Shown in pieces: positions 11,079 through 52,468 of a DNA stretch of 64,000 bases (the first letter of the stretch is position 1; every line of letters starts with the position of its first letter). Below the pieces are notes generated by a model. The model did not search any database. It was not told the origin of the DNA and worked only from the letters and a program-made list of their open reading frames with translations. Location: IMG/VR virus record IMGVR_UViG_3300025141_000026; one strand, given 5' to 3'. A program made the translations under genes and the position numbers. Source of the stretch: a virus.

Positions 11079-11681
11079 TTAGTCCTCCAAGACATAATTC
11101 AAAGCACGATTGATTCTATCTGCTTTCGTAAATATTTGTTTTTCAACGCCTTCCTGCAATCCCATATAAGCGCCGGGTGTTGATGGTTCAGAAACAAAGT
11201 CAAAACAAATGAGTTGAAAATCTTCTTGAACCGTTACGGTGCCATTTGTACCTTCAGATACAGAACCAAGACCTCTAGAGGAAATGCCTAGAGAGACACC
11301 GGAGTCAACCAAAGATCGAAGAACGTTGCCTGATGGGGTATCTAATACTTTGACCTTACCCATGACAGAGTTTCCATCCCACCACACATCTGTAACAAGG
11401 TGGGAAGCGTTCTTAAGATTGATTACGGAATCATCTGGGTGGTCTAATTCACCCAAAGCCCTTCGTTCTTTGACAAGCTTGTCATAGTTTTGCATCTCGC
11501 GACGTAATACCTTTTGAGGATATACTCTGCCATTTCCATTTTGAACTTCAGCCTCTTGTAACTTACCGGTAAGAATCATTCCCCCATTAGATACAAATTT
11601 CTTTTCTTCTTCCGTGAGGAGATCTTGGCAAACACCACCTTCACAAAGTTCATAATATTCTCTCAAAAGTTTCTTTGACAT
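11079..11681 (-). CDS. Prohead protease (gp21-like, S77)
   Basis: NGNGRVYP, ALGELDHP, NASH, GISSRGLGS, DFVSEPSTPGA motifs. Confidence 0.95.
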   Translation of the reverse strand: MSKKLLREYYELCEGGVCQDLLTEEEKKFVSNGGMILTGKLQEAEVQNGNGRVYPQKVLRREMQNYDKLVKERRALGELDHPDDSVINLKNASHLVTDVWWDGNSVMGKVKVLDTPSGNVLRSLVDSGVSLGISSRGLGSVSEGTNGTVTVQEDFQLICFDFVSEPSTPGAYMGLQEGVEKQIFTKADRINRALNYVLED

Positions 11682-25057: not shown

Positions 25058-25066
25058 GTAATTAGT
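25058..25066 (-). promoter_or_regulatory. Putative late promoter motif ACTAATTAC (lysis cassette and leader array)
   Basis: Copy of the recurrent motif. Confidence 0.5.
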
Positions 25067-28000
25067 TACTGAGATACAAAAGCGAATCCATCATTTTTCT
25101 CAATTTCAATAGTGGTATCAGCAATGTCCTTCAGGCTATCGACATGCGAGATCAACAAAACTATCTGATAGTAGTTCTTGACCATATCCACAATACGAAC
25201 AAAACCTTCCATGTTTTCCGCATCAAGGGCTGTTGCTGGTTCGTCAAGAATAAATAGGTTGGATTTAGGCAATGACGACACAGAAAGCAGCGCTAGTCTG
25301 ATTGCCATTGCAGCAATTGTTTTCTCAGCGCCAGATCCCATCTCAATAGGTCGTGGGTCATGCTTGGGGTGCTTGATAAAGATGTCAAGCTTGTTGCCAT
25401 CATTTTCAAAGAAGACCTCAAAGTCAACAACGTTAGCCAACACCTTTGAAATCTCATCATTGATGATTGGCAACCTCTTCTTAATAATATCATACGAGAT
25501 GCCATTAGAGTGCATGCAACGCATAAACAAATCATAAGCAGTATACTTGGTTCTTAGATCCTCCAAGTTTGCCTGTTGCTCAACCAAGTTGTTGAGCCGT
25601 TGTTCCAAAGAGCCATGCTGCTTATAAAGTTCTAAGATTTCGTTTCTGCATTCTTCGTATTCTTGTTTTTCTCTCTCCATTCTTTCTGTAGCCGCTCTTT
25701 TCTCTCCTGAAAGAATTTCCAGATTTTCAATAACTTCTTTGTTCTCTTCATATTCATTGATCTTTGCCTCCAGTTCTTTTATTTCAACTTCTAAATTTGT
25801 TTTTTTGGACTTGCTCTTCTCTATGTCAAGCTCAATACGAGCCATCTCATTTGAGAGATTGTTCTTCTTCTCGACAACCTTGTTGTATTTGGCTAAATGG
25901 CTGTCCACAATATCTGGCTGTAGGGTGCCGATATCCTTTTCTATTTTCTCCTTGTTGTTGTTGAGGAGGGTAATCTTCTTCTTGCTTTCTGGAAGAAGTT
26001 TTTTATGTGTATAAGCGTCTCGTATAAACCTACAATGAGAAAACTCAGAACCACAAGGGACTTCTGATAAGAGTGCGACTTTCTTTTCAATTCCTTCTTG
26101 CTCCCTTTCCTCTATACTTATTTCTGAAATGATATTATCGAGATCTTTTCCCTTGTCATTAATAAGTTCTTTTTTAGTTTCTAGTTCATCAATATCAAAG
26201 TTATCCAAAAACTGAATTATCTTTTGGTAATGGTCTAGCTTTTGTTTGTGCTGATCCTTCTTTTCGGATATGTCAATGTCAGCGATTTGTAGTTCGTTGG
26301 ACTTGATTTCTTTATCCTCCACGACCTTTACAATATTTATGATGCTTGCTGGCATTGACTCAATCTTTTTTGTCAAGGCAGTAATTTCATTGCGTATCTC
26401 TTCAATCTGGACTTTGTATGCGGCACAGGCTTTCTTTTGTTCTTCAGTTCTTCCAGCATTGTCGTTTAACAATAGTTGAGCAGCCTTGATGTCCTCATCA
26501 TAGTCTTTGCCCTCTAGTGTTTTCAGAGCACCTCGAAGATCTGATGCATCATCTTTTGCTAGCTTGAACTTCTTTTCAAAGATATCCAAATCCAAAAACT
26601 TTGCTAAGATTTCTTTACGTTTTGTAGATCCTTCATTGATGTATGAAAGAGATCCCATCTGAGATGACATAGAGGTCATTAGGAAGTCATCCATTGTCCC
26701 CAAGACCTTTTTGATATTTTTGTCGGTCTCATTTCTTGTGGTGCCATTTAGAACATCTATATCTTGTGTAATCAAGTTTTGTTTTGTAAACTCAGTCTTT
26801 GTTTTAGCTTCAAGCGTCTCTTCGCCCTTCAGCTTTTTGAGATACTTCTCTGACTCTCTATGGATGCTGTACGTGTCATCCCCAACAGATATCTCAACAT
26901 CTGCGGAACACATTTGCTTGTTCTGGTTGATTATGTTGAGATTCTTTCTCTCGTTTTTAGATGTGGAATTATACATCCCATAAAGCAGTCCGTCGATGAT
27001 GGAAGACTTACCAGAGAAGTTCTTGCCAAAAACTCCCACGACCCCATTCAACTTGGTGAAATCAATGGAGTTTCCTTCTCCATAATTGAACAGGTTATCC
27101 CAAGAAAACTTTCTTAGATTCCAATTTACGTTCCTTGTGATCTCCTCTTCTTCTTCAGCAACGGCATTGTATTTTCTATTAAGCTCATAAACCTTTTCTA
27201 AGGTCTGATCGTTAGCTTCATAGTCTTTGAGATACTCATCAATGAACTCTTCCTGAACAGCTATGTCACGAAGGTCCTCTTTTTTCAAGGTGTGGGTCAT
27301 ATGGTCAACGCTAGAGTTGCCACTCGCACGATTCAAGAATGTGATTGACTCTGGCTTGAACTTGGATTTAGCAACATCAATAGCCTTTCTCATCACATCG
27401 AGAGGAAGGTTATTGTTTGTAGCCAAACGAAGTCTTGAGCCGTTTGGAAATGATAGAGATCTAGGGATCTTGCCCTTCGGTGTCAAGTCGATTGTAATAA
27501 ACGGCTTAGGATTCAAAAGCACATGGTGCTTGCATGTATAGTTATCCTTGTCCTTTACATCCCATACCAGATATCCCTTGTCGTTCGTTTCTCCAAAGTT
27601 TTGCTGGACTGTTGATCCCGCATAGCGGATCTTACCTTTTGCATCGAGGGTTTGGTTGGTCTTGTGGATATCCCCAAGGAAAGCATAATCAAAATTATTA
27701 AAAATAGAAATGTCATAGTCGCCATAGTCCATTGTCCATCCGATGTCGGTTTGGCAACCGCTGATGGAACCGTGATAGAGAGCAATATTTACTCTATCAT
27801 AATTAGTTGGCTCGACCCAATTATCGGTATCAAACACAGACAAAACATTCAAAGCAAAATTGTCATTTATGACAGTTTCGCCTGACTCTTTAAGTAAATG
27901 TATGCTTGGGTGCGCCAGCGCTTCCACGATTGGGGTGATGGCATCTTGACGACTACTGTTCTTTAGATTGCCATCGTGGTTTCCCAAGATAATATAAGTT

Positions 28001-28215
28001 GGCGCAATGTCACCTAGACTGCGAAAGAAGTCGGTTGCCATCTCCACAAACTCTGGTGAGATCTGGGTCTTGGTGTGGGCAATGTCGCCACAATGGATAA
28101 TACAATCCACCTTTTGTTTTCTCAGCTTTTTGTACATCTGTTTGAATACTTCTTTATATTCAAAGTGATATTTCAGATTGCGGATATGGGTATCCGCTAT
28201 ATGAGCAAATCTCAT
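25066..28215 (-). CDS. Fused Mre11/SbcD nuclease - Rad50/SbcC ATPase (gp47-gp46 fusion)
   Basis: ADTH, GD, GNHD and GDIH metallophosphoesterase motifs; Walker A GKNFSGKS; long coiled coil; SGAEK signature; ILDEP; ISH. Confidence 0.92.
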   Translation of the reverse strand: MRFAHIADTHIRNLKYHFEYKEVFKQMYKKLRKQKVDCIIHCGDIAHTKTQISPEFVEMATDFFRSLGDIAPTYIILGNHDGNLKNSSRQDAITPIVEALAHPSIHLLKESGETVINDNFALNVLSVFDTDNWVEPTNYDRVNIALYHGSISGCQTDIGWTMDYGDYDISIFNNFDYAFLGDIHKTNQTLDAKGKIRYAGSTVQQNFGETNDKGYLVWDVKDKDNYTCKHHVLLNPKPFITIDLTPKGKIPRSLSFPNGSRLRLATNNNLPLDVMRKAIDVAKSKFKPESITFLNRASGNSSVDHMTHTLKKEDLRDIAVQEEFIDEYLKDYEANDQTLEKVYELNRKYNAVAEEEEEITRNVNWNLRKFSWDNLFNYGEGNSIDFTKLNGVVGVFGKNFSGKSSIIDGLLYGMYNSTSKNERKNLNIINQNKQMCSADVEISVGDDTYSIHRESEKYLKKLKGEETLEAKTKTEFTKQNLITQDIDVLNGTTRNETDKNIKKVLGTMDDFLMTSMSSQMGSLSYINEGSTKRKEILAKFLDLDIFEKKFKLAKDDASDLRGALKTLEGKDYDEDIKAAQLLLNDNAGRTEEQKKACAAYKVQIEEIRNEITALTKKIESMPASIINIVKVVEDKEIKSNELQIADIDISEKKDQHKQKLDHYQKIIQFLDNFDIDELETKKELINDKGKDLDNIISEISIEEREQEGIEKKVALLSEVPCGSEFSHCRFIRDAYTHKKLLPESKKKITLLNNNKEKIEKDIGTLQPDIVDSHLAKYNKVVEKKNNLSNEMARIELDIEKSKSKKTNLEVEIKELEAKINEYEENKEVIENLEILSGEKRAATERMEREKQEYEECRNEILELYKQHGSLEQRLNNLVEQQANLEDLRTKYTAYDLFMRCMHSNGISYDIIKKRLPIINDEISKVLANVVDFEVFFENDGNKLDIFIKHPKHDPRPIEMGSGAEKTIAAMAIRLALLSVSSLPKSNLFILDEPATALDAENMEGFVRIVDMVKNYYQIVLLISHVDSLKDIADTTIEIEKNDGFAFVSQ

Positions 28216-28223
28216 CGTTCTCC

Positions 28224-28610
28224 TTATAGTCTGATGTTCTTTTGAAGGTGGTCCCCTGCTTTACGCATGTCAGTCTCCAACTTGTGTAAATAAGCGGAAA
28301 TCAAAACAAAGCGAGCGACAAATTCAATTTCGTCCCCCGGCAACACATCACCAAATTTTTTATCTTCAGCGTTCTTGTGTTCGTAAATGTAGTTGAATAG
28401 ATATTGCTCTGTCCTTATGCCGACTTGCGCTCCCAGTTTATCATGGGGCGAGTGACAAGGTTTGCACTGTGCGACCCAGACGTTTGATTTAGTTCGCATA
28501 ATTGATGCGTCTTGTGCCTGAACAGTGATGGGTATAAACAGTAGTAGAATAAAACTACTTTTTAGTTTTCTTAGATTTCTTCTTTTTAGGAGGCTTTGCA
28601 GCATTGTCAT
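28224..28610 (-). CDS. Exported c-type cytochrome-like protein
   Basis: Signal-peptide-like FILLLFIPITVQA-Q, CKPCH heme-binding motif, C-terminal L..DEIEFVARFV helix. Exact start uncertain. Confidence 0.55.
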   Translation of the reverse strand: MTMLQSLLKRRNLRKLKSSFILLLFIPITVQAQDASIMRTKSNVWVAQCKPCHSPHDKLGAQVGIRTEQYLFNYIYEHKNAEDKKFGDVLPGDEIEFVARFVLISAYLHKLETDMRKAGDHLQKNIRL

Positions 28611-28809: not shown

Positions 28810-28812
28810 GAA

Positions 28813-29373
28813 TTATTTTTCGTCTTTTGCGTCTAGGTATGCGGCGACAGCCATTTGTTGCCTCTTCTTTTTGCCTTTACCTTTGAATTGCGGTGCCTTA
28901 GATTTGTAGAAGTCATCCACATATGCACCTGCTCCGTCAGATGGCTTTAGTTTTTCTCCAAGCCCCAACTGAGCTTCTTCCTCTTCTGGTCACTGTTCTT
29001 GTAAATCGTCATCTTCGTTTACTGTTCTTGGGGAATCTAAAGTTTCACCGCTAGTAACATCTTTGACAACAGACATAAGAAACTCAACTGCTTTATCGTG
29101 CATGTCTTGCGGATCTTTTGAAACAGGTTCTCCAGTACCAGCATATGTTTGAGCTACATCTGTTGGCGTAGTCATTTCTTGGTATGCTGCACCAATAGCT
29201 GCTTCAAGATTTTGAATAGTCTCTACGTCAATACTTTCGTCCAATTGTTCGTCTTGTTGTTCTAACTCTTCTTGGACTTCTTCTCCAAACATCTCACCAG
29301 CTTCTTCGTTTGTAAGAACAACTTGAAGCTCTTCTCTAATGATTTGTTTAAGTCTTGCTTTTGTCATTTTCAT
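28813..29373 (-). CDS. Putative selenoprotein B (127 aa + UGA + 58 aa), probable internal head protein
   Basis: In-frame TGA at 28990-28992. The frame continues as PEEEEAQLGLGEKLKPSDGAGAYVDDFYKSKAPQFKGKGKKKRQQMAVAAYLDAKDEK to TAA at 28813; a SECIS-like hairpin follows the TGA. Confidence 0.6.
28960..28976 (-). promoter_or_regulatory. SECIS-like hairpin 2
   Basis: AAGCUC-AGUU-GGGGCUU starting 13 nt after the in-frame UGA; one bulged G. Confidence 0.55.
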
Positions 29374-29723
29374 TTATTTGATCTCTCCTTGTCGTCGTCA
29401 TCTTGCTTGGCATGCATATGCTCATTTACAAGAGTCTGCTCGATGTCTGATTCTGTCAAGTTTCTGATGATTGTATCACCAAATTTCATATCATAAACGC
29501 CGATATCGCCATTCTCATTGAGAGAGTGCCAAAGAACTTTTCCAACGGCGTTTTTTTCGTTGATTCCGTATCTTTCCTGTAAAGCTGAACTCAGCTTTCC
29601 TTCCTTCATTCATTTGTGTTTGAGGTCGTCAAGTTCCTTTTCAAGTTCTTTCTTTCTTTTCTTCTCAGCTTTTGTGAGTTCTTCTGCGATAATCTCTTTT
29701 AATCGTTGTTTTGTAATTTTCAT
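29370..29723 (-). CDS. Putative selenoprotein A (37 aa + UGA + 79 aa), probable internal head protein
   Basis: ATG at 29723 with RBS gives MKITKQRLKEIIAEELTKAEKKRKKELEKELDDLKHK, then TGA (29610-29612) in frame with MKEGKL...EHMH; a SECIS-like hairpin follows. Confidence 0.6.
29581..29598 (-). promoter_or_regulatory. SECIS-like hairpin 1
   Basis: Perfect 7-bp stem AAAGCUG-AGUU-CAGCUUU starting 11 nt after the UGA. Confidence 0.65.
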
Positions 29724-29732
29724 GTTATTCCC

Positions 29733-30671
29733 TCATAATGAATTTATAGCTTCGTAGAGTAAGTAGTTTTCATCATTCAAAAAAGAAGCCCTAGATTTTC
29801 TCTGCAAAAACTCCTCTTTTGACATCTCGCCAACATCGGTATATGGGAGTATGTCAATCTTGTATACTTTTATATCATAGGACAGCAATTTCTGTATGAT
29901 TCTCCTCGTCTTTTTCTCTGCGTCGGGGTCAAGTGCTAAGTATACATCTGATCCGTGATTTACTATGTCTTGAAATAGTTTTCCATCTTCTTTAATATAA
30001 GAGCCAAGAATCGGAATAGCATTGGCTCCTGCAACAACTGCATCAAATACACCCTCGACAAGAGTGATATCTTTTGTCCAATCAACCATTAGTTGGTTGA
30101 ACACAATATTCTTTGATACTGGTGGGTTCTTGTACTTTGGAAATGCATCGCCGTAAGCTCTGCCAACAAAATAATTTAGACAGCCTCTGTCATCAAACGA
30201 TGGGATCATAACTCGACCAGCATACTCGCCCTCTGAGCAATAGCCCATCTTCCAGTTGATAATGTCTTCTTCGGAAACATCACGGCTCTTCAAATATCTT
30301 TTGACTCGTTTGGTGTCATAGCAATCGCTTGCACTGACAAGAGACTTGAATTCTCTTGGCAAGCGTACTTTTATTGGTGGGTCAACTTCTTCCTGAGCAA
30401 ACAGGGAGTCAAAGTCTAGGATATTGGTGCGGTTGGTTAGTTTGTCCCACTCTGCCAATTCATCACGAGAGCCAAACTTTCTGACTAACCTGCGAATATC
30501 ATTGCCGCTCGTTTCACAGATCCAGCATTTGTATTTGTTTTTTGGTATGTTTACGGAGAGTTTCTTTTTGTGGTGATTGCAAAAGCCGCACTTAAAAATG
30601 TATTCTTCACCAGATGCATAATATCTACCCAAGGCATCACTGAGAATGTTTACTTTTTTCTGCTCTGACAA
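29733..30671 (-). CDS. DNA primase (Zn finger + TOPRIM)
   Basis: CGFC...CWIC Zn finger, YLKSR, RVMIP, KYKNP, LVEGVFD, LDPD motifs. Confidence 0.9.
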   Translation of the reverse strand: MSEQKKVNILSDALGRYYASGEEYIFKCGFCNHHKKKLSVNIPKNKYKCWICETSGNDIRRLVRKFGSRDELAEWDKLTNRTNILDFDSLFAQEEVDPPIKVRLPREFKSLVSASDCYDTKRVKRYLKSRDVSEEDIINWKMGYCSEGEYAGRVMIPSFDDRGCLNYFVGRAYGDAFPKYKNPPVSKNIVFNQLMVDWTKDITLVEGVFDAVVAGANAIPILGSYIKEDGKLFQDIVNHGSDVYLALDPDAEKKTRRIIQKLLSYDIKVYKIDILPYTDVGEMSKEEFLQRKSRASFLNDENYLLYEAINSL

Positions 30672-43000: not shown

Positions 43001-46000
43001 CTATAATATTGGTTCATTGCCAATATCATTTATTTTATTTTCAACTTCTTTGTCCGTTTGTCCCCTGTCTATATCCCCTGTATTGAGAAAGACTTTCTTC
43101 ACATCCGCTGGTGAAAAGGATTGGTCTTTGGCTAAATCGGGATCCTTTTTCTTAGGTGGATCATTTATTTCTGGTGCTGGATCGACAGTTATATCTGGTG
43201 GTGTTATGGGGACATTGCCTCCGATTTGTACGCCAGCATCGATCTTTGCTAATTCCACCAAACTAAAGAAGTCATATGGCCAATTATAGCTATAAGTTGT
43301 CTCCTCCAATGCCCCATCAACAAATTTGTCCATGCCCAATGTTTTACTTATAGCATTATTATAACTATATTTTGCTCTCTGTTTTACCTTGAAGATCATC
43401 CATCTGACCTCTTTTGTGATTGACTTTCCTAGCAATAACTCATTGTTTGTAAGAAAGTGAGTTATCTTTGAAGTTTGTTTTTCGGCTTTTACAGATATCT
43501 TTGGCATAACTCCCTGCCATATATCAGCCAAGTCCTGCTTATCTAAAGTGTGGCTAAACTCAAATATATACATTTGAAATGGGGTTAGATTTTCGTTATT
43601 GATAAAGTCAAGAGACGGCGGGAAGACGTACTTCTGCATTCTTTCTATTTGATCAATAATAGAGTGACCCGGAGTATAAACCGCAGGATCTAATGGATCT
43701 CTCTTGCCTAAGATGGCATCTACAACATGGCGACCTTTTGTTTTTGCAACGACTAAATCTTCAGCAGGAACTAATGGATAGAATATTTTTTTATCCCCAT
43801 TCACAGTAAAAGGTATCGCCACAACTGCTTCAAATATTTCTTTCTCTCCAGTTATCTCCCCAATACGTTTCGCCTCAGTATTGGGGAACAAAACTTGCCT
43901 CAATGAACCGATCTGTGCTTCTGTAGTTGGTGATAAACCCAAGGCAGAAAGAGGGTTGCCCCCATTGAATGGAGGGGCAAACGTAGGAAATGGATCTGTT
44001 AAGTCGTAATATATACCCTCTCCAGAAGAAGGAAATTCTCCGTATCCTCTCCACATCCCACGAGTATGAAGGTTTGCGTCTGCAAATGTTGTTCCAGTGT
44101 TCCCACTGAAATTCATGACAGGACACTCGAACTTGGGAGATATCACCCATTTTGATTCTTCCTGTCCAACTTGTGTGGTGGTTGGTCTTCCAAGAGCGTC
44201 AAATGCAAAGACGGGCTTTCCAACCACATTGAAAAGATTCATTGATGAATTTATTTGCATTTGGTATCTTGTTGCAAGAGAGAACTGATCTGTATTGGAG
44301 CCGCCTTCTCCCGGTCCATTTTTGGTGGGATCAAGAATTCCGAATGTCAAGTAATTGCTCTGATCTAATTCATAATTATTGAAAAATGTTGATCCACTAG
44401 TTGCTATATAGCCAACAATCTCACTAAGAGTAAACGAAGAATTCTTTCCGCCCACATCTAATGATTCGTTTGGTGCTAATTCTGTAAATTCATGTGGAGA
44501 AAATTTACATCTAACTGTAGACTTGCCATAAAAATATGGTGGAGTATAGGCAGCATTGGCTGGGTCACAACGAAAAGCATTGTTCATTCCAAAGGTCAGT
44601 GTCGATCTGTCAGCCATTCTTTGTAAGAGCGGTGGACCATAATGAATTCCTCTTGCTGATGCGGTGTTTCCTTGTGAACTAGTATTATTTAACCTGTGTG
44701 GTCCTTCATACATAACCATATCTGGTGTTTTATAAAGTTCGATATCCATATAATAATTGACACCAGATAGAAAACTAGCCATTGAGGTTGATTCTATGTT
44801 TGAAAACTTGCCCTCTTCCAAAAAGAAATTTGGCACTTCAGCTAAAAAGTTGTTCATTGCTAATGTGTAGTTGTCTTTGTTGTTGCCGTTCCAAACAGCA
44901 TAAGCTCCACTAATTCGTGGGGCACCAGTGTACAATCTGGCGTCTAGGTAGTTTATTCTTTCGGGCTTGTCACTAACTGTGGTCAATTTGTTTTTTGATG
45001 CTAAATAATTTTGAGGATATAATAACGCTTCAAATGGTATTCTAAATGAGCCAGTATCCGTTTGGACAACATCTCCGCCCCCGGCACCACCAAAGTTATC
45101 GATATTTGTAGATCCAGTAAATGTCATCCAGTCAACAGCAATACCTGATTTGACTGTGTTATACAGAATACCCGGATTGAAAAAAGGTTGCATAAACGCA
45201 CTCACTCTTTCAGTGTTTGGATTAGAAGAGAAAATTTCACTTCCTTCTAGAAACGGAGCAAATGATTGTGACATTAGGCTTCCTAGCTGAACTGTCCTAT
45301 TCATTGGATAAAAGCCGTTGTATGGCAATAATTTCTTAATTCCACTGCACTTTACGGTTATCTTGGTTTGCTTGGCGACCCCATCATGTTGTTCTCGAAT
45401 AACGTCAAAGTGTTTGATAAAATCACTGTGTGTGTAGATATCAAAGAAATCGGCATCAAATGGGTCGGTTTCAGATTCCGCAGATTGGGATAAGTGCCCA
45501 CCCTCAAGTGTCAAGTATTTATTATTTTTAGACGTAGCACCAAAGAAAGTACCCTTATCTAGATAGTAGTCCATGTGTTGAGATATTCTAAATTCTGGGA
45601 GGACCGTGTGGTCTTGCCCAAACAACCTAATATCAGATGCATATTCTTCATAAGAATCGAACCATGGCTTCTTACCTGACAGTCTTCCTGTGTCCCAATT
45701 TGGAATAAACTCTGAGTAGAATTCTCCATCAGACCCTCCTTCTGCCGCAGATGACGACATGAAAGCGTGATACTCGTAAGTGAAGGAGGCTGTTGGGGAC
45801 AATAATGCGGTTCTATCTATTTGGTATTGCAACATTGATGTGCTAAAGCTATCTACAGAAAGTGCACCATGATTCGTCCCTGTGAGTTGTGAGTAATCAA
45901 TTGTTGCCCCTGTCATTCTATCTCCAACATCAAGGGGGTGAACACTAAAAGCAGTGGCGAATTCCGGTCTGGGCGTACCCACTACAGGGGGTGATAGTGT

Positions 46001-49000
46001 GATAAGCGTTTCAGTATAACCAAGTGCGTTTCTTGCTACGCCATCTGTTCTTTGTCTATTTCCTAGTGCGTCTCTCCAGAACGTTCTTTGATCTCCAAGA
46101 ATTGAAGTATAGTCAGTTGAGGTTATGTCCTCATTGTATGAAGTTCTTCCTCTTGTTTTTGCCAAATAGGTGTGTTGCTCTTTTGGGTATATTGTTTCTT
46201 TATAGATTAAGTGCCTAAACCCTTTTATTGGATTTGACGCTTGTGGGACTGTACCCTTTACTGTGAACTCTAATAAGTTATCATATACCTGCTGTCCCGG
46301 TGGCTCAATTCTATTCGCAGTATTCATGTCATTCATTAGGTCTGGGTTTGCAAAATAATCAAAATTATTAGCATATGAATGGTCAATTGAAAGTGGTGCG
46401 ATTTCTTTGTTATCGTTTATTACATTTAGAGCGTGTCGCATTGGCTTGTATTTTGAAGACAGCGGAGGCTCAATATAATTTTGTATTGTCAGTTCTGCGC
46501 CTAACATGTCATGTGTTTTGCCTTTTAGACCTTGATAGCTGTTGTCAGTCAAATCTCTATAATTCAACTTTGGAAAGATTGTTGAATTAAAAAGTGTTGT
46601 TGCATGACCCTTGTTTTTGCTTATAAAAGGCTTAGGGTTTCTAACTGACAATGAATATGTATTTGTGTCTTTTAAGTGTCTTACAATTGGATGATACATG
46701 TTTCTAATTTGCTTAAAGACAGGGAAACCGACTCCGCCACCAGCGTTTAGAAGACCTGCGTTCAGTAAAACACTTTCACCTATTCCGTTGGGGCCCATTT
46801 GTCCATTGTCCAAGAGACCATTTTGTATCGTGTTGTCAGAAAACTGTGTTGAATCTGCAACTACAATAGTGTTTAGACCCGCAAAATCTACCGGTAAAAA
46901 CCTGACCCCGGTGCCAATTGCTTGCAATAATGTTATCCCGTAGCCATAAGTCACTCCGGAACTACCAACCGCGCCAAAATTACTGGCGCTGGCAAAGTTT
47001 ACAGCAGATTCAAATCCACCAGCAGAAGAGGACACTTTACCGCTGTATGGAAAGTAGCCAAGACCAAATCCATTTGATGGGTCCTGAGATAACACAGACG
47101 CTGTGATCCAAGAATACTGAAAATCACTTCTTGGAATCATGTGGGTAATAAACCCATTATCAAACGTGGAGCCTGTTGCATAATCTTGATTTACAGTTCC
47201 ATCCGGGTTGAGATATGTTGCACCGTTGTTCATCTCAATTCTACGCAGTCTGTTCCTATATGTTTTATGGAAAGCGGGAGTGGTGGATGCCTGATTATCA
47301 TACCCGCCAAATGCTGTCCGTCTTGAAAGCAGTGACGTTAAGCCAAGCGAAGAGGTTGACCAAGTGTTTGTGCTTATCTCGACACCAAGGGTCTGGACTT
47401 GTTTTTTATATGCCCCAATCCCTCTAACAGATAAGTTTCTAAATGGCATTGCGTTGTATGCAGACATCTCTTCTGCAAACGGGTCTAGATATCCACGAGA
47501 CATTGCCTCGTAACTTCCCGGCGCAGAGAATCTTTCAACAAAGACTGTATCTGTTGTTTTTCTTTCCGCCAGTTGATAATCATAAAATAGATTTCTTACA
47601 AAAGATATCTCAGGTGTTGGCAGCAGTCCGGGCAGCAGTGTTTGACTTGTATATCCAAAACCAACCCCTTGCTGCTCTACAAAATATTTATTATTTGCTG
47701 TTCTACCAGAGGTTTGTAAAACATCGTATTGGTGAGAATAATTTCCAACTGGTCCGTGAAAAAGAGCACCATCCAAACGAGTGTCAACAGTCGCTGTTGT
47801 TTGCAAAATATTCTTGATTACAACGGGTCTTTTTGCTATAAAATCTCTATAGTAAGGAGCATTTATACCACCCAAAGCACCGACAGCGCCGTTATAATGA
47901 TTTCTGAACTGCATTTGGGAGTGCACTGTTGGAGGCAAGACTATTTTCCAAGCTTCTGGTCTATGATGCATGGAGTTTGTTGTAATATCTCTTCCGTCAT
48001 TTATTCTGACGTGTCTATGTGGGTTTCCACCTTCCCACCTTTCTGTAAAGGTCCCTTGCATTGGCTCTTCCGCAAGAGTTCCATATCCATCATGATGGTG
48101 GTTTACAACAACAACCTTTTGGTCTTTTGGATCCCCACTGCCTCCGGGTTCCCAACTGTTTAAATAAACATCAGTAGTAGAACCTGTGGTGTAAAGATTA
48201 AAAGGTACAATTGTGTTTATTTTTTGCACATCTAAAATGGCACCCGCTGTAACACTATATTTGTAACCGAATGATGATTTTACTTTATTTTTGTTTCTAA
48301 GTTCATCATTGTCAGCACAGTGGCGGTCGTCAGTGTGCCTGTCGTCTACATATAATTGACTTCCAGTGACCAATACTACATTTTGATTTCCGAATTGTAG
48401 AAACCCTTTCCAATAATCAACCTTTTTATTTGCATCAAAGTTTACACCACCCTTAATTTGCTTGGTGAATGAAACGCCTTCTCTGTATGGTTTTGACAAT
48501 TTACGAAGAACATAGGTTGACCCTTCGTATCTTTTTAGATATGATCCACTATTGTCTGTTGTCGCTCTATCTAAAATTGTTTGTCTACCTGTGTTCACAG
48601 AGGCAACACTGGAGCTTAGGGCAGCGATTGTTTTTTCTGCCCTTTGATTAAACCATAAGCAGTTATCTTTTTGCTTTTTGTCATCAGACACATCTGTTGG
48701 GGCATGCCCAAATTTCCAGTTATATGTAAGCTCATTGATACCAAGCGCTGGGACTTCTGGGTCTTCCTGCTTGGTTTCTAATGTTGGGAATTTATTTCTG
48801 TATGCATTTCTTTCTAGAACATGACTTTCGACAACTGTTCTTAAGTCATCTGCATAGTTTGCTGATACTGGGAAAAGCTGTTCCAAGAATTTTGTAATCG
48901 CTGCATCAATCCACTTATAGAAATCAACATATTTATCTAGATCAGGAGAGTTGCCTATACTTTCAAAAAATAGGCTTTTCAACTTATCCATGTCTTTATA

Positions 49001-52000
49001 CTGACCTCGGTACCTATTTACGGGCTCGCCAATCAAATTATTGAAATCAGCAATTGTGGCAAACATTCGTAGCATCTCATCAGATATGGTTTGATACATG
49101 CTTTTTTCTACCGCATAAAAATAGTCTATTGGTCTACTGTCCCTAGTAAATTTAAGATCATCTTGGTTGAGAATCTCGATCATATCAGAACTATTTATTA
49201 CTTCTGGTGCATCTAGTTTTGCTGAATTTGCATAAATGTGATCGACCACTTTTTCGTTATTTGGCTCGAAAAAATCACCACGACCTGTAAATTGATTTTG
49301 AACAATATTTCTCAGAGCGCCATATCGATCATCTGTAATCCCCTCGGCAAAATTTTGTGTTGTAGAGCCAGACGAAATATCTTCGACAACAAAGCGAGCA
49401 TCATAAGTGGTTGGTACCCCGCTGATGCCAGCGTCAGATCCAGTGACATTTGTAAAATCCCATTCAAAAATTAGAAGCTCTGATCTTGGGATATCAAAAG
49501 GTTTTACACTATTTTGAAAAACAAAAGCGCTTTTATATGGATGAAGAACTCCTTTACTGTCTGCATTTTTTGCATGAACTCCAAGTTCTTCATCCGTCAA
49601 GTAATCCATCCAAGCTCTAGTTGTGGAGATTCTTACGTCCGACTCTTGCAGCAAGCCTCCTGAGAAGTTTGTTCTGTGTGCTCCCAAGTACATACGCTTG
49701 GATCCGGACATGAAATTGTCTCCAATACTAGCGTTGACTGTTGTCGAGAGACTAAATTCATCCACAATGGTATCTAAATCAGCGTGTGCGCCGTAAAAAG
49801 ATAATTCATATGTCAGATCAGTATCGGCAGCAATTGAAGAATCAAGAGTGCCAGAATTTGTTCCTGTCAAGGCGTTTGCCCATGGATATTTTGTGGGTTT
49901 TATTCTAACCGCAAAATTCCACTTTTCATTATCATAAACATAATCGAATACACTACTTGTTAGATTTATGCCCATTGCAGAACTTGTCAATTGAAAATAA
50001 GCATGGCGTGAATCTCTTTCTGGTCTTACCGCATATACTTTAAATTCGGAAACATCCGGGTCATTCCAAGTTGTGTTTGCTTGACCCGAAGATCCGCCTT
50101 CGGCTTCTACTGCTGTGTGCATACCGTACAGCGATGATGACAGTTGTTCAAATGGTTGATAAAAAGGATCTCCGGGGTCTCCCTTATATGGGAAGTAAAC
50201 TTCAGATTGGAAAGTCATCCCAAAACCACCAGAAACCAATGCTAGTGCAGAAGGTATGTATGAATATGCGTTTGTATTATTATTTACACTAGATGTATAA
50301 TGGTAAATTGTAGCTGCTTGTCTATCAACATCCATAAAATCAACATATGTCTTTTTTAACGCAGAGGATCTAAAATTGTTTTTTAGTTCAAAATCTACAT
50401 TATTCCCATATAAATTCAAACGAATTAATTCTTCATCCACACCAAAGCATCTAACTAAATTTCTAAAAGATTTTTCTGTTCCTTTTGACTTTAGAATAAA
50501 ATTCAAATTGTTATAGATGTTTTGATAAATTTGATTTTTTATGTTATAAAGCTTGTCTTTATATTCTCTATCTTCGTCCCTTGAGCTAAGTTGTTCTAAA
50601 GCTTCCGCATCAGTAAAAATCTCCGGAACATCAATCCCGAAAGATTGAAGTGCATTCTTTATGAAAGGTTTTGGTTTACCACTAAAGCTGGAGGAATATG
50701 CGGGATATGCATTGGAGCCGGTTACTAATATGCTACCCTCGTCAGCATAATTTTTAGCTCTCAATTCCATAAACTTTGTGTAATTTGCATCTTTTACGTG
50801 AGGCAAAAAGTCTAATTGAAGTTGTAAGGTATCAAAATAGCTAGCCATTATTTGTATTATTTTAACTAAATTTGAAGCTCCAACCTCTTTGTCATCTTCT
50901 GCGATCCAATTTGGTAATGTTGTATGAATGGCAGAAGAGTTTCTTGCATCGTAAACGCTTCCCTCTTCAGACTTGTCTTTCTTAAGATTGAATACTTGGG
51001 GGTGAAACGAGTAAATGATTGGGTCTCTAAATTCTGTAAGAGATGCAGATGACTCTACCATAGCAGAACCAGTAAGTCGTGGACCAGTCTGAATGTCTGT
51101 TTTATCATAGTTCACGATTGTACCATTTGAAATTCTGCCTGAATAATCTAAAACTGTGGCATCATATGAGGCGTTTGTAGTGATGCCCTCGTTGAACTTG
51201 AAATATACACCTAAATCCGTGTTTGAATTATCAGTATTCGCACCTCCGTAAACTTGTGTAAACCAATTTCTACCAACCTCTTTTGCGGTTCTGGATTTTT
51301 TCCAAAATCTAAATTCATCTATCGCACCATTAAGTTGATTAAACCCATTAAAATCAGTTCTTGCAGTTGGTGCAAGAGCAATGGCTTTTACGGTGTTGTC
51401 AGGGAAATGTTTGTAAGCTCCAATATTAGCATTTAGTGCCCCTGTAACTTCCCCAATCGAAGAGCCGGTAAGAATTGAGTCTATGGGTTCTCCATTCACA
51501 TATGTTTTGATTCTTAAGGAGTTACCCTCATTTTTCACACTAAATGCAAGGTGATTCCAAGACCCTGTTGTGAACTGCGGAACGGATGCAAAGGGGAGCA
51601 CTGGGACTTTTTCGGCTCCGGAAGTTCCAGACATGTATGTTAAATGGAAATTAGCGCCATCAACCAATGTGAATTGTGCGCCTCCGGTGCCTCCGCCGGT
51701 ATTGAGATAATAATATCTTCTATCTATTAAGAATCTACCATAGCTACCACTTCGTATTGCAGTTGTAGTGCCCCCATCATCATTCCATAAATCAAACAAC
51801 ACACCATGCGCTACCGACGTGGGCTTGACCCACAACTCTACCGTGTTGCCCTCTGCTCCGTCAATGGAAAGATTTGATGCTCTTTTCCTTTCTGCATCAT
51901 AAATGTTTGCTGATGTCTGAGTATATGATGTTTTTGAAGAGGCTTTTGAATAAGTTTGTGATTTTGGTTGTTGGTCAAGAGTGTCCGCCGCTCCTGCTTT

Positions 52001-52468
52001 ATTAGGACCACCCTTCACACTAATGTACAACGGTCCAGTGTGGATTTGAGCGAAGAATTCCACACCAGTACCATCATCATTTTGTTTATACGCGGTGGGG
52101 CTGGTGCTTTGATCTTGTACATAGTACCCGTTTGTTCTTGGGTACAATTCATCGAACACATAGTTGTCAAAATATGATGCAGAATTGTGCCATTCTGTTT
52201 TTTCTTTGTGTGAACCGTCGTATGGATAAGTTCGATGAACGGCTTGAATAGCGTTTTCGTAATATTTTTCAGCAGACCCATAGCGTACAAAAGTTTCTGG
52301 TTTTGTGAAATCTACTTCTGGTACGAATCTGTCTTTTTCTTCTTGATAGGCTTCAATATAGCCAAAAGACTCAGCGTCTTGACTTGATGTGAGATCATTT
52401 ATATTTTTTGCAGATAAGACTTTTCCTGAGCTATCGTGCTTGTTGAATAAATCTTTTATTTTTGGCAT
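43001..52468 (-). CDS. Giant (3155 aa) baseplate/tail protein with LamG-like domains
   Basis: TVELWVK, WNHLAFS, GAIDEFRFW and YFKFNEG LamG motifs; KSKGTEKS..LVRCFG resembles a gp7-type wedge motif. Confidence 0.7.
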   Translation of the reverse strand: MPKIKDLFNKHDSSGKVLSAKNINDLTSSQDAESFGYIEAYQEEKDRFVPEVDFTKPETFVRYGSAEKYYENAIQAVHRTYPYDGSHKEKTEWHNSASYFDNYVFDELYPRTNGYYVQDQSTSPTAYKQNDDGTGVEFFAQIHTGPLYISVKGGPNKAGAADTLDQQPKSQTYSKASSKTSYTQTSANIYDAERKRASNLSIDGAEGNTVELWVKPTSVAHGVLFDLWNDDGGTTTAIRSGSYGRFLIDRRYYYLNTGGGTGGAQFTLVDGANFHLTYMSGTSGAEKVPVLPFASVPQFTTGSWNHLAFSVKNEGNSLRIKTYVNGEPIDSILTGSSIGEVTGALNANIGAYKHFPDNTVKAIALAPTARTDFNGFNQLNGAIDEFRFWKKSRTAKEVGRNWFTQVYGGANTDNSNTDLGVYFKFNEGITTNASYDATVLDYSGRISNGTIVNYDKTDIQTGPRLTGSAMVESSASLTEFRDPIIYSFHPQVFNLKKDKSEEGSVYDARNSSAIHTTLPNWIAEDDKEVGASNLVKIIQIMASYFDTLQLQLDFLPHVKDANYTKFMELRAKNYADEGSILVTGSNAYPAYSSSFSGKPKPFIKNALQSFGIDVPEIFTDAEALEQLSSRDEDREYKDKLYNIKNQIYQNIYNNLNFILKSKGTEKSFRNLVRCFGVDEELIRLNLYGNNVDFELKNNFRSSALKKTYVDFMDVDRQAATIYHYTSSVNNNTNAYSYIPSALALVSGGFGMTFQSEVYFPYKGDPGDPFYQPFEQLSSSLYGMHTAVEAEGGSSGQANTTWNDPDVSEFKVYAVRPERDSRHAYFQLTSSAMGINLTSSVFDYVYDNEKWNFAVRIKPTKYPWANALTGTNSGTLDSSIAADTDLTYELSFYGAHADLDTIVDEFSLSTTVNASIGDNFMSGSKRMYLGAHRTNFSGGLLQESDVRISTTRAWMDYLTDEELGVHAKNADSKGVLHPYKSAFVFQNSVKPFDIPRSELLIFEWDFTNVTGSDAGISGVPTTYDARFVVEDISSGSTTQNFAEGITDDRYGALRNIVQNQFTGRGDFFEPNNEKVVDHIYANSAKLDAPEVINSSDMIEILNQDDLKFTRDSRPIDYFYAVEKSMYQTISDEMLRMFATIADFNNLIGEPVNRYRGQYKDMDKLKSLFFESIGNSPDLDKYVDFYKWIDAAITKFLEQLFPVSANYADDLRTVVESHVLERNAYRNKFPTLETKQEDPEVPALGINELTYNWKFGHAPTDVSDDKKQKDNCLWFNQRAEKTIAALSSSVASVNTGRQTILDRATTDNSGSYLKRYEGSTYVLRKLSKPYREGVSFTKQIKGGVNFDANKKVDYWKGFLQFGNQNVVLVTGSQLYVDDRHTDDRHCADNDELRNKNKVKSSFGYKYSVTAGAILDVQKINTIVPFNLYTTGSTTDVYLNSWEPGGSGDPKDQKVVVVNHHHDGYGTLAEEPMQGTFTERWEGGNPHRHVRINDGRDITTNSMHHRPEAWKIVLPPTVHSQMQFRNHYNGAVGALGGINAPYYRDFIAKRPVVIKNILQTTATVDTRLDGALFHGPVGNYSHQYDVLQTSGRTANNKYFVEQQGVGFGYTSQTLLPGLLPTPEISFVRNLFYDYQLAERKTTDTVFVERFSAPGSYEAMSRGYLDPFAEEMSAYNAMPFRNLSVRGIGAYKKQVQTLGVEISTNTWSTSSLGLTSLLSRRTAFGGYDNQASTTPAFHKTYRNRLRRIEMNNGATYLNPDGTVNQDYATGSTFDNGFITHMIPRSDFQYSWITASVLSQDPSNGFGLGYFPYSGKVSSSAGGFESAVNFASASNFGAVGSSGVTYGYGITLLQAIGTGVRFLPVDFAGLNTIVVADSTQFSDNTIQNGLLDNGQMGPNGIGESVLLNAGLLNAGGGVGFPVFKQIRNMYHPIVRHLKDTNTYSLSVRNPKPFISKNKGHATTLFNSTIFPKLNYRDLTDNSYQGLKGKTHDMLGAELTIQNYIEPPLSSKYKPMRHALNVINDNKEIAPLSIDHSYANNFDYFANPDLMNDMNTANRIEPPGQQVYDNLLEFTVKGTVPQASNPIKGFRHLIYKETIYPKEQHTYLAKTRGRTSYNEDITSTDYTSILGDQRTFWRDALGNRQRTDGVARNALGYTETLITLSPPVVGTPRPEFATAFSVHPLDVGDRMTGATIDYSQLTGTNHGALSVDSFSTSMLQYQIDRTALLSPTASFTYEYHAFMSSSAAEGGSDGEFYSEFIPNWDTGRLSGKKPWFDSYEEYASDIRLFGQDHTVLPEFRISQHMDYYLDKGTFFGATSKNNKYLTLEGGHLSQSAESETDPFDADFFDIYTHSDFIKHFDVIREQHDGVAKQTKITVKCSGIKKLLPYNGFYPMNRTVQLGSLMSQSFAPFLEGSEIFSSNPNTERVSAFMQPFFNPGILYNTVKSGIAVDWMTFTGSTNIDNFGGAGGGDVVQTDTGSFRIPFEALLYPQNYLASKNKLTTVSDKPERINYLDARLYTGAPRISGAYAVWNGNNKDNYTLAMNNFLAEVPNFFLEEGKFSNIESTSMASFLSGVNYYMDIELYKTPDMVMYEGPHRLNNTSSQGNTASARGIHYGPPLLQRMADRSTLTFGMNNAFRCDPANAAYTPPYFYGKSTVRCKFSPHEFTELAPNESLDVGGKNSSFTLSEIVGYIATSGSTFFNNYELDQSNYLTFGILDPTKNGPGEGGSNTDQFSLATRYQMQINSSMNLFNVVGKPVFAFDALGRPTTTQVGQEESKWVISPKFECPVMNFSGNTGTTFADANLHTRGMWRGYGEFPSSGEGIYYDLTDPFPTFAPPFNGGNPLSALGLSPTTEAQIGSLRQVLFPNTEAKRIGEITGEKEIFEAVVAIPFTVNGDKKIFYPLVPAEDLVVAKTKGRHVVDAILGKRDPLDPAVYTPGHSIIDQIERMQKYVFPPSLDFINNENLTPFQMYIFEFSHTLDKQDLADIWQGVMPKISVKAEKQTSKITHFLTNNELLLGKSITKEVRWMIFKVKQRAKYSYNNAISKTLGMDKFVDGALEETTYSYNWPYDFFSLVELAKIDAGVQIGGNVPITPPDITVDPAPEINDPPKKKDPDLAKDQSFSPADVKKVFLNTGDIDRGQTDKEVENKINDIGNEPIL

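What the first reader, a model, noticed from the sequence alone, without database searches (positions are those of the whole stretch)
28813..29723. Two adjacent phage genes with in-frame UGA and matching SECIS-like hairpins: candidate viral selenoprotein system
Seen: both genes have a UGA with the frame open beyond it (KHK-UGA-MKEGK at 29610; LQEQ-UGA-PEEEE at 28990). Each UGA is followed by a purine-rich spacer (11 and 13 nt) and a hairpin with the same AGUU loop: AAAGCUG-AGUU-CAGCUUU and AAGCUC-AGUU-GGGGCUU. The shared AAGCU(G/C)AGUU is read in different codon frames in the two genes, so the similarity is at RNA level. Other UGA stops I inspected here (mostly ATGA overlaps) lack such a hairpin. 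Established: bacterial SelB-binding SECIS elements lie inside the ORF just 3' of the UGA with a G(U) in the apical loop; in E. coli fdhF the minimal stem starts 11 nt after UGA, and hairpin 1 puts its GU at the same offset. Inference: the phage uses host SelA/B/C/D to make selenoproteins. Because both carry a capsid-targeting-like leader, they may be virion-packaged, and selenium supply could switch between short and long forms.
Basis: partly seen in the sequence, partly recalled or inferred. Interest (0 to 1): 0.95.

Follow-up and report, generated by a model that had tools for sequence, protein, structure and literature searches.

The report
Selenocysteine-type UGA recoding in marine phage
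Two neighbouring genes of an uncultured marine T4-like phage continue past an internal UGA "stop". For the first gene, comparison with about 60 relatives gives the standard signature of selenocysteine, which I found unreported for a virus of bacteria. The second gene carries a look-alike UGA-hairpin cassette, with weaker evidence.

Summary

**Gene 1 (29723-29370, minus strand)**
- It belongs to a phage-only family. All 59 distinct relatives from IMG/VR, down to about 30% identity, keep TGA at one codon.
- That codon sits in an invariant H-x-U ... W-H-S-L ... H-x-H core.
- In many relatives the next codon cannot start translation (CTG, CTA, TTT, ATA, GCG).
- A hairpin 11-12 nt downstream co-varies: 6 of 8 pairs change on both sides in one group and 3 of 7 in the other.
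- The hairpin fits the bacterial SECIS model. Its G and U lie at positions 23 and 24 after the U of UGA, as in E. coli fdhF.
- More than 20 distant homologues, including proteins of cultured cyanophages, have Cys (TGT) at that position.
- "Trp" at this site in public protein databases is a genetic-code-4 gene-calling artefact.

**Gene 2 (29373-28813)**
- It carries a portable TGA-plus-hairpin linker cassette. Homologues either have the cassette with TGA or lack it entirely.
- No homologue has a sense codon in the cassette, and no Cys form exists. The hairpin is weak.

**Limits and context**
- Five related phage records carry no tRNA-Sec, selB or selD, and the host is unknown. Dependence on host machinery is therefore inferred.
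- This scan found the same family earlier on other DNA. I found it in no paper.
- Likelihood of selenocysteine: about 0.8 for gene 1 and about 0.5 for gene 2.

The parts
29370..29723 (-). Gene 1, full recoded reading frame: 117 residues with U at position 38. The stop is TGA at 29372-29370, overlapping the ATG of gene 2 as ATGA.
   Evidence: Family alignments A3 and A7 give invariant H36, U/C38, H66, G72 and H102.
29610..29612 (-). In-frame UGA of gene 1, the candidate Sec38 codon.
   Evidence: TGA in all 71 related loci, 59 of them distinct proteins. Cys (TGT) in distant homologues. Unchanged in independent assemblies.
29581..29598 (-). SECIS-like hairpin of gene 1: a 7-bp stem AAAGCUG/CAGCUUU with loop AGUU, 11 nt after the UGA. 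G23 and U24 lie in the loop.
   Evidence: -7.6 to -8.3 kcal/mol, z -2.4 to -2.9. Covariation. Same offsets as E. coli fdhF.
29676..29723 (-). N-terminal leader of gene 1, MKITKQRLKEIIAEEL. It is shared with gene 2 and with many relatives.
   Evidence: Read depth spikes over the leader, which suggests many copies across genes and phages.
28813..29373 (-). Gene 2, full recoded reading frame: 186 residues with U at position 128, ending in TAA at 28815-28813.
   Evidence: Alignment A1.
28990..28992 (-). In-frame UGA of gene 2, inside an acidic linker (LQEQ-U-PEEEE).
   Evidence: TGA in every cassette-bearing relative read as DNA. Of 120 cluster representatives, 32 end at this site, 2 read it as W (code 4), and none has a sense codon.
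28960..28976 (-). Hairpin of gene 2: AAGCUC-AGUUG-GGGCUU, 6 bp including one G-U pair, 13 nt after the UGA.
   Evidence: -5.9 to -6.9 kcal/mol, z 0 to -1.5. Relatives have AAGCCCA-GUC-UGGGCUU. A strain variant shortens the spacer by 3 nt and keeps the stem.
28813..28959 (-). C-terminal basic module of gene 2 (…LGEKLKPSDGAGAYVDDF…AAYLDAKDEK). It is reached only by passing the UGA.
   Evidence: The same module is fused without any stop in 46 homologue clusters. In other phages it is a stand-alone gene with its own ATG.

Best explanation
Both UGAs are recoding sites of the bacterial selenocysteine type.

Proposed mechanism: when the host ribosome reaches the UGA, the hairpin 11-13 nt downstream recruits the host's SelB carrying Sec-tRNA(Sec). 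Selenocysteine is inserted and translation continues in the same frame.

Gene 1 then yields a 117-residue protein. Sec38 sits in an invariant H-x-U ... W-H ... H-x-H cluster on a small beta-rich domain. This is most likely a metal-binding or redox site in which selenium replaces the sulfur found in the Cys forms of cyanophages.

Gene 2 carries a portable linker cassette (EQ-UGA-PEEEEAQLGLGEK plus hairpin). The cassette joins the body of the protein to a basic C-terminal module. Termination gives a 127-residue short form and recoding gives a 186-residue long form.

Shown here:
- the conserved UGA;
- continued protein-level selection directly after it, without a start codon;
- the co-varying hairpin;
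- Sec/Cys pairing in gene 1.

For: Gene 1:
- TGA, never TAA or TAG, sits at the same codon in 71 loci giving 59 distinct proteins, down to about 30% identity.
- The codon after the TGA is ATG in most of subfamily A. Elsewhere it is ATA, GTG, CTG/CTA/CTT, TTT/TTC or GCG. In one subfamily only 11 codons precede the UGA. The downstream part therefore cannot be a separate gene.
- The UGA column is one of five invariant columns (H36, U/C38, H66, G72, H102) in an alignment of 34 Sec and Cys forms.
- A profile search of 1.8 billion proteins found more than 20 homologues with Cys in H-x-C-A-x-H at that column. The codon is TGT in the two that I read as DNA, and the hairpin is absent there.
- Cys forms occur in 181 GenBank records of Synechococcus and Prochlorococcus phages.
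- 'W' at the site in database proteins comes from code-4 gene calling.
- The hairpin is 95% and 94.5% paired, with double changes in 6 of 8 and 3 of 7 pairs. No shuffle out of 500 reached the observed score, and pairing collapses when the partner columns are slid.
- The hairpin meets the published bSECIS constraints as given in PMC13188914: loop of 3-9 nt, stem of 4-16 bp, G in the first two loop positions, 16-37 nt from the UGA.
- G23 and U24 lie as in E. coli fdhF.

Gene 2:
- The cassette always carries TGA and a hairpin with a G-U-containing loop (AGUUG or GUC) in the five distinct versions read.
- Among 120 cluster representatives there is no sense-codon variant.
- The 5' arm and loop nearly match gene 1's in a different reading frame.

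General:
- TGA is a real stop elsewhere in the window.
- There is no suppressor tRNA or tRNA-Sec in the window or in five related records.
- The sequence is confirmed in an independent assembly.
Against: - The host is unknown. No relative of gene 1's family or of the phage's terminase was found in 185,579 species genomes. The presence of selA, selB, selC and selD in the translating cell is therefore untested.
- The phage records carry none of that machinery.
- Hairpin stabilities are marginal. Gene 1 gives -6.9 to -8.3 kcal/mol against a model cut-off of -7.5. Gene 2 gives -5.2 to -6.9, no better than shuffled sequence.
- The bulged U that E. coli SelB uses is absent.
- Gene 2 has no Cys homologue. 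Its UGA lies in an acidic, probably disordered linker. About half of the homologues lack the cassette.
- One gene 1 paralogue (in L007) has GGA, Gly, at the site.
- The structure model is of moderate confidence (pLDDT 74) and has no significant structural match, so the metal or redox site is inferred from conservation only.
- There is no experimental evidence of selenium incorporation.
Confidence: 0.72

Rival explanations
1. SelB-independent programmed read-through. The hairpin slows or remodels the ribosome at a leaky UGA, and a near-cognate tRNA (Trp, or Cys or Arg) is inserted. This would give a fixed ratio of short and long products, as in the Qbeta A1 protein or retroviral gag-pol.
For: - Recoding itself is well supported, but nothing here identifies the inserted residue.
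- The phage has no Sec machinery and the host is unknown.
- Gene 2's UGA lies in a linker where a special residue seems unnecessary, and there is no Cys form.
- One paralogue tolerates Gly at the gene 1 site.
Against: - In gene 1 the UGA is an invariant column inside the conserved His-rich core. Its only sense-codon counterparts are Cys in more than 20 homologues, never Trp.
- In one subfamily the short product would be an 11-residue peptide, which makes a two-product rationale weak.
- The hairpin's position and its G-containing loop match the SelB-type model and the offsets of fdhF.
- From my own knowledge, hairpin-stimulated read-through is not established in bacteria.
Confidence: 0.13
2. 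For gene 2 only: the UGA is a true stop. The 58-codon tail is either translated separately, from the TTG at 28968 preceded by the purine-rich GAGGAAGAAG, or is a module left behind by recombination. On this view the hairpin is incidental.
For: - The hairpin is no more stable than shuffled sequence.
- The same C-terminal module exists as a stand-alone gene with its own ATG in other phages.
- Gene callers annotate small ORFs after the stop.
- The cassette is absent from many homologues.
Against: - The TTG is replaced by TCT in relatives (L185 to L187). The conserved EAQ(L/S)GLGEKLKPS lies upstream of their first ATG.
- Always TGA, always in frame, and always with the hairpin in five distinct cassette versions.
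- In L183 and L184 the same cassette is followed by a different module, still in frame.
- Hairpin loop types (AGUU, GUC) parallel those of gene 1.
Confidence: 0.1
3. Artefact or decay (sequencing error, nonsense mutations in dying genes) or a general change of genetic code (UGA as Trp or Gly, or a phage suppressor tRNA).
For: - Public protein sets show W at these sites.
- The phage's 'free' TGA stops cluster in this small region.
Against: - The W is a code-4 gene-calling artefact.
- TGA is kept in 59 distinct sequences with purifying selection on both sides.
- An independent assembly is identical.
- ORFs of 3155 and 2569 codons contain no TGA, and ten genes end in ATGA overlaps.
- No tRNA in the window or in relatives has anticodon UCA.
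Confidence: 0.02

Closest known systems
Bacterial selenoprotein genes with an in-ORF SECIS read by SelB (prototype E. coli fdhF; bSECIS consensus of Zhang and Gladyshev 2005 as summarised in PMC13188914)
   Same: - In-frame UGA followed within the coding sequence by a small hairpin.
- Loop G followed by U or G.
- 18-19 nt from the UGA to the loop.
- For gene 1, an 11-nt spacer, a 7-nt 5' arm, a 4-nt loop and G23/U24 exactly as in fdhF.
- Sec/Cys pairing among homologues.
   Different: - The genes are in a virus that carries none of the Sec machinery.
- There is no bulged U in the stem.
- The protein family is phage-only, with no cellular relative found, and has no CxxU or UxxC redox motif. Instead it has a His-rich H-x-U...H...H-x-H constellation.
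- Gene 2's UGA lies in a linker cassette that is present or absent as a unit.
Viral selenoproteins of eukaryotic viruses (glutathione peroxidase homologues of molluscum contagiosum virus and fowlpox virus; from my own knowledge)
   Same: A virus encodes a selenoprotein and relies wholly on the host's Sec insertion machinery.
   Different: Those are captured host GPx genes with a eukaryotic 3'-UTR SECIS. Here the family has no cellular homologue, and the element is of the bacterial in-ORF type.
Programmed UGA read-through in phage Qbeta (A1 protein)
   Same: A phage makes a C-terminally extended protein by passing a UGA. For gene 2 a mix of short and long forms is the likely outcome.
   Different: From my own knowledge, Qbeta needs no downstream structure and inserts Trp. 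Here a co-varying hairpin at a fixed distance and Cys homologues point to Sec.
T4 internal proteins with a capsid targeting sequence cleaved by the gp21 prohead protease (from my own knowledge: the IPIII leader MKTYQEFIAE)
   Same: - Short N-terminal leader starting MK.T and ending (F/I)IAE.
- The same leader is shared by several unrelated small genes.
- A gp21-family protease (Pfam Peptidase_S77) is encoded in the window.
   Different: Neither packaging nor cleavage was tested. The leader here is longer and its similarity is short. This is a resemblance, not a demonstrated membership.

Membership tests
Bacterial selenoprotein gene with in-ORF SECIS | In-frame UGA with the coding frame continuing under selection | tested here: met
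   - Gene 1: 59 distinct relatives, synonymous variation right after the UGA, and no start codon in many.
- Gene 2: five cassette versions in frame.
Bacterial selenoprotein gene with in-ORF SECIS | Apical loop of 3-9 nt, upper stem of 4-16 bp, and G in the first two loop positions (G followed by G or U) | tested here: met
   - Gene 1: 7 bp, loop AGUU. Relatives have GUC, GGA or GGG.
- Gene 2: 6 bp, loop AGUUG, or GUC in relatives.
- Model constraints taken from PMC13188914.
Bacterial selenoprotein gene with in-ORF SECIS | 16-37 nt between the UGA and the apical loop | tested here: met
   18 nt in gene 1 and 19 nt in gene 2. Other gene 1 subfamilies have 20 nt.
Bacterial selenoprotein gene with in-ORF SECIS | Hairpin free energy of -7.5 kcal/mol or lower | tested here: inconclusive
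   - Gene 1: -7.6 (isolated hairpin) and -8.3 (45-nt context) by RNAfold, but -6.9 by strict evaluation.
- Gene 2: -5.2 to -6.9, which does not meet the cut-off.
Bacterial selenoprotein gene with in-ORF SECIS | Homologues with Cys aligned to the UGA | tested here: met
   - Gene 1: more than 20 homologues with H-x-C-A-x-H; TGT in L189 and L190; cultured cyanophage proteins.
- Gene 2: not met. No sense-codon homologue exists, and the cassette is absent instead.
Bacterial selenoprotein gene with in-ORF SECIS | Hairpin conserved with compensatory changes | tested here: met
   - Gene 1: 6 of 8 and 3 of 7 pairs change on both sides, and 0 of 500 shuffles reach the observed score.
- Gene 2: only one-sided changes in five versions.
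Bacterial selenoprotein gene with in-ORF SECIS | selA, selB, selC (tRNA-Sec) and selD present in the cell that translates the gene | not testable with these tools
   - The host is unknown.
- Five related phage records, one of them complete, have no tRNA-Sec, selB, selD or SelB winged-helix domain.
Bacterial selenoprotein gene with in-ORF SECIS | Selenium actually incorporated (75Se labelling or mass spectrometry) | not testable with these tools
   This needs an experiment.
E. coli fdhF-type minimal SECIS | 11-nt spacer with G23 and U24 in a 4-nt loop | tested here: met
   Gene 1 compared with fdhF of MG1655.
E. coli fdhF-type minimal SECIS | Bulged U17 in the 5' arm | tested here: not met
   Gene 1's stem is a perfect 7-bp helix.
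T4-type capsid-targeted internal protein | Short N-terminal leader ending (L/I)-x-E together with a gp21-family prohead protease | tested here: inconclusive
   The leader contains LKE and IAE, and a Peptidase_S77 gene lies at 11079-11681. Cleavage and packaging cannot be tested here.

The most novel reading that the evidence does not exclude
Marine phages use the host's selenocysteine machinery in two ways. First, they place a selenium ligand in a phage-only His-rich domain (gene 1). Second, they use a portable UGA-SECIS linker cassette as a switch gated by selenium and SelB. The switch decides whether a capsid-targeted protein receives its C-terminal module (gene 2), and the cassette can be recombined between different modules.
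Probability: 0.3. Interest if true: 0.92.

Novelty: new variant of a known kind. Interest (0 to 1): 0.85.

Why it matters
Natural selenoproteins are known from cells and from a few eukaryotic viruses that captured host genes. I found no report of one encoded by a phage. The 2026 review of prokaryotic selenoproteomes (PMC13188914) does not mention phages or viruses, and the GOS selenoprotein sets (PMC2398784) do not hold this family.

If confirmed:
- Part of the ocean's selenium demand would be viral.
- A UGA-SECIS pair would become a host-range marker, because only Sec-competent hosts could make the full protein.
- Gene callers would be shown to split or mistranslate a widespread phage family systematically.
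- The His-rich Sec/Cys site and the linker cassette would be new objects for the study of selenium chemistry and of recoding.

Tried and rejected
- Rfam at gathering thresholds and ARAGORN on the window: nothing.
- blastn of the region and tblastn of three Sec-form proteins against 50,697 GenBank phage records: no match.
- Pfam and PHROGs on both proteins: nothing significant. There is only a weak hit of the 79-residue part to phrog_11470, which later proved to be the cyanophage Cys form.
- The sub-threshold tRNA-Sec hits in five related records are tRNA-Leu(UAA).
- No Rdx/SelW family gene in those records.
- Two scans of 185,579 species genomes, with the family profile and with the terminase, found no relative. 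No host clue came from them.
- Foldseek against the PDB: no match at E of 0.001 or better, only weak SH3, Tudor and FeoA-like rows.
- A cassette DNA pattern search in IMG/VR found only the two loci already known.
- A family scan seeded on alignment A1 mostly picked up the shared leader.
- No RNA holder was listed among the sequencing runs.
- Considered and rejected: termination-reinitiation (no start codon in many relatives); ribosomal hopping (residues conserved directly after the UGA and no matched take-off and landing codons); a hairpin forced by the amino-acid sequence (stems differ, with different residues, while pairing is kept).
Full report
**Setting.** The window is part of an uncultured marine myovirus. 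All long ORFs lie on the minus strand. They include a tail sheath, baseplate wedge, major head protein, portal, large terminase, a T4 gp21-type prohead protease, a DnaG-like primase, a RuvC-like resolvase and a fused Mre11/Rad50-like protein. The terminase is at most 46% identical to any GenBank phage, the nearest being Flavobacterium phage vB_FspM_immuto and Microcystis phage Mel-JY01. No whole genome is held for the window.

- Gene 1 runs from the ATG at 29723 through a TGA at 29612-29610 and on for 79 codons.
- Gene 2 runs from the ATG at 29373 through a TGA at 28992-28990 and on for 58 codons.
- The hairpins are AAAGCUG-AGUU-CAGCUUU, 11 nt after the first UGA, and AAGCUC-AGUUG-GGGCUU, 13 nt after the second.
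- Their shared AAGCU(G/C)AGUU is read in different codon frames.

TGA is a real stop in this phage. Twelve of 49 likely genes end in TGA, ten of them as ATGA overlaps, and ORFs of 3155 and 2569 codons contain no TGA. No other TGA stop has a comparable hairpin. Only 0.3-2.8% of all UGA triplets on the coding strand do, depending on the threshold.

I read E. coli fdhF directly. Its TGA is followed by 11 nt and then GGUUGCA-GGUC-UGCACC, which puts G23 and U24 in the loop. Gene 1's loop is A22-G23-U24-U25.

An independent marine metagenome holds a contig identical over 28812-29780. Diverged strains in two further runs differ at many positions, but none of the listed differences falls at either TGA or in either stem.

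**Gene 1: comparative evidence.** A search of the clustered protein collection found hundreds of relatives. Some are about 116 residues long and cover the whole read-through product. Most are about 79 residues long and start just after the stop.

The long forms show Trp at the UGA position. That is an artefact, because the one I traced translates to its database sequence only with TGA read as W, which is a code-4 gene call on a short contig.

In IMG/VR I found 70 loci. Together with one ENA locus they give 59 distinct proteins down to about 30% identity. Every one has TGA, never TAA or TAG, at the same codon.

The codon after the TGA is ATG in most of the window's own subfamily. In others it is ATA, GTG, CTG, CTA, CTT, TTT, TTC or GCG. 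In one subfamily only 11 codons (MDKYNKSVQHQ) precede the TGA. The residues just after the stop (for example L-T-H) vary synonymously. Translation must therefore pass the UGA in frame. Separate genes, reinitiation and pseudogenes are excluded.

In an alignment of Sec forms the UGA column is invariant, together with H36, G61, V63, W65, H66, L68, G72 and H102.

**Gene 1: Cys forms.** A profile search of 1.84 billion representative proteins gave 323 hits. Hits that span the site have either W (the code-4 artefact) or Cys.

More than 20 distant homologues carry H-x-C-A-x-H-V where the Sec forms have H-x-U-(L/M/F/A)-x-(H/E). In a joint alignment of 34 Sec and Cys forms, H36, U/C38, H66, G72 and H102 are invariant and H104 nearly so.

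The Cys codon is TGT in the two homologues I read as DNA, and the hairpin is not there.

Cys forms occur in 181 GenBank records of Synechococcus and Prochlorococcus myophages. There they are a domain of larger hypothetical proteins (PHROG 11470, 22379 and 764), with H-D-C...H-T-L...H-E-H. No Sec form is present in any of the 50,697 GenBank phage records.

One paralogue, in L007, has GGA at the site.

**Gene 1: the hairpin.** Every subfamily has a hairpin starting 11-12 nt after the UGA, but the stems differ:

| Stem and loop |
|---|
| AAAGCUG-AGUU-CAGCUUU |
| AAGCUGAA-GUC-UUCAGCUU |
| AGCUGGG-GUC-CCCAGCU |
| ACUUGGGG-GGA-CUCCAAGU |
| AAGCGGAA-GGA-UUCUGCUU |
| GGAGGAA-GGG-UUCCUCC |

On gap-free alignments the pairing statistics are:

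| Measure | Window's subfamily | Other subfamilies |
|---|---|---|
| Cells paired | 94.5% | 95.4% |
| Pairs changed on both sides | 3 of 7 | 6 of 8 |
| Shuffles (of 500) reaching the observed covariation | 0 | 0 |
| Pairing when 3' partners are slid | 15-55% | 34-61% |

Amino acids change to keep the stem (K-L-S-S-A becomes R-L-S-S-D), so the constraint is on the RNA.

The element meets the published bacterial SECIS constraints: loop of 3-9 nt, stem of 4-16 bp, G in the first two loop positions usually followed by G or U, and 16-37 nt from the UGA (PMC13188914). The energy criterion is only borderline, at -6.9 to -8.3 kcal/mol with z about -2.4 to -2.9. The bulged U of the E. coli element is missing.

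**Gene 2.** Homologues come in two forms. In 46 of the 120 best cluster representatives, the body is fused directly to the C-terminal module (…EMEE-KLKPS-GAGAYVDDF…). In 32 the protein ends at (E/D)Q, and in 2 the site is read through as W by code 4. None has a sense codon there.

In the five distinct cassette versions I read as DNA, the stop is always TGA and always in frame. It is always followed by a purine-rich spacer and a hairpin whose loop contains G-U (AAGCUC-AGUUG-GGGCUU, AAGCCCA-GUC-UGGGCUU or AGCUCG-GUC-UGGGCU). In L183 and L184 the same cassette is followed by a different C-terminal module.

A strain variant in two runs lacks 3 nt of the spacer and keeps the stem. The C-terminal module also exists as a stand-alone gene with its own ATG in other phages.

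Against a Sec reading:
- The hairpin is weak, at -5.2 to -6.9 kcal/mol with z from 0 to -1.5.
- There are no compensatory double changes.
- There is no Cys form.
- The UGA lies in an acidic linker.

For a Sec reading:
- The stop is never lost where the cassette exists.
- The TTG that could serve as a start is TCT in relatives, while the conserved peptide extends upstream of their first ATG.
- The hairpin types (AGUU, GUC) parallel those of gene 1.
- The same phages carry gene 1.

**Machinery and host.** The window has no tRNA. Five related phage records of 120-237 kb, one judged complete, carry tRNA-Leu(UAA), Met, Arg, Lys, Asn and Ile. They have no tRNA-Sec, no UCA anticodon, no selB, no selD and no SelB winged-helix domain.

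No relative of the family or of the terminase was found in one genome per species of 185,579 species. The host therefore stays unknown.

A 2026 preprint reports that 135 complete Pelagibacter genomes lack selC, while all 84 Actinomarina genomes have the full Sec pathway. Sec-competent abundant marine hosts therefore exist, but I cannot link one to this phage.

**Protein.** The AlphaFold model has mean pLDDT 74. It shows an N-terminal helix (residues 5-32) followed by a small beta-rich domain. H36 and U38 lie on its first strand, W65 and H66 on the next, and H102 on the last. Foldseek finds no significant match. The invariant His/Sec/His constellation suggests a metal or redox site; this is inference.

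Both genes begin with the leader MK(I/M)TK.RLK.II.EEL. The window encodes a Peptidase_S77 prohead protease. The leader contains the (L/I)-x-E pattern that I recall as the T4 gp21 cleavage motif, and it resembles the T4 IPIII targeting sequence. This is a lead, not a test.

**Literature and earlier notes.** Full-text searches combining selenoprotein or selenocysteine terms with phage terms found no description of a phage-encoded selenoprotein. The 2026 review has no mention of phage or virus. The new families of the GOS study are different proteins, and its supplementary sequence sets lack the WHSL motif.

Earlier follow-up reports of this scan describe the same H-x-U-x-x-H family and other candidate phage selenoproteins on other DNA. 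I re-tested their central claims here: conserved UGA, co-varying hairpin and Cys in distant relatives.

**Verdict.** Recoding of the gene 1 UGA is close to certain. Selenocysteine is the best explanation (about 0.8), since every comparative criterion for a bacterial selenoprotein gene is met except the one that needs the host. For gene 2, a SECIS-type cassette giving short and long forms is the best reading (about 0.5), with a true stop or SelB-independent read-through as live rivals.

Noticed in passing
window 11079-11681 (-): T4 gp21-type prohead core protease (Pfam Peptidase_S77, E 1.6e-33). It is relevant to the idea that the shared N-terminal leaders are capsid-targeting sequences that get cleaved off.
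   Followed up: partly
window 29733-29735, 29610-29612, 28990-28992: The only TGA stops that do not overlap the next gene's ATG as ATGA cluster within 750 nt. The primase's TGA is followed in frame, after three codons, by the ATG of gene 1. I saw no hairpin after the primase stop.
   Followed up: partly
public protein collections (e.g. P0123, P0016, P0243-P0259): Gene callers in metagenome mode translated these short contigs with code 4. The candidate Sec codon therefore appears as Trp in public protein sets. With code 11 the gene is split into two ORFs.
   Followed up: yes
L007 around 1180-1260, frame 2: A second copy of the gene 1 family in one phage has GGA (Gly) in place of TGA. It keeps a partly G-U-paired version of the hairpin.
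   Followed up: no
L183 and L184, 1759-1950: The gene 2 UGA-hairpin cassette is followed by a different lysine-rich C-terminal module. This suggests that the cassette marks a recombination joint between modules.
   Followed up: partly
window 29347 to 29708 (run X2): One contig joins the leader of gene 2 to the leader of gene 1 and skips 360 nt, which is gene 1 as a whole. Read depth also spikes over both leaders. This is compatible with leader-to-leader recombination, but the joint has only 22 matching letters on its shorter side and may come from another phage.
   Followed up: no
P0316 (Cys form): A Cys form of the gene 1 domain is fused to the NEDGHTD...LPSW middle domain typical of gene 2 homologues. 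The leader-bearing proteins are therefore built from shuffled modules.
   Followed up: no
window 28224-28610 (-): A small protein with a signal-peptide-like N-terminus and a CKPCH motif (CxxCH, a haem-c attachment pattern). It has no Pfam or PHROG hit.
   Followed up: no
window 25066-28215 (-), 43001-52468 (-), 56275-63984 (-): A fused Mre11-like phosphoesterase and Rad50-like ATPase of 1049 residues, and two giant ORFs of 3155 and at least 2569 residues in the tail/baseplate region.
   Followed up: no
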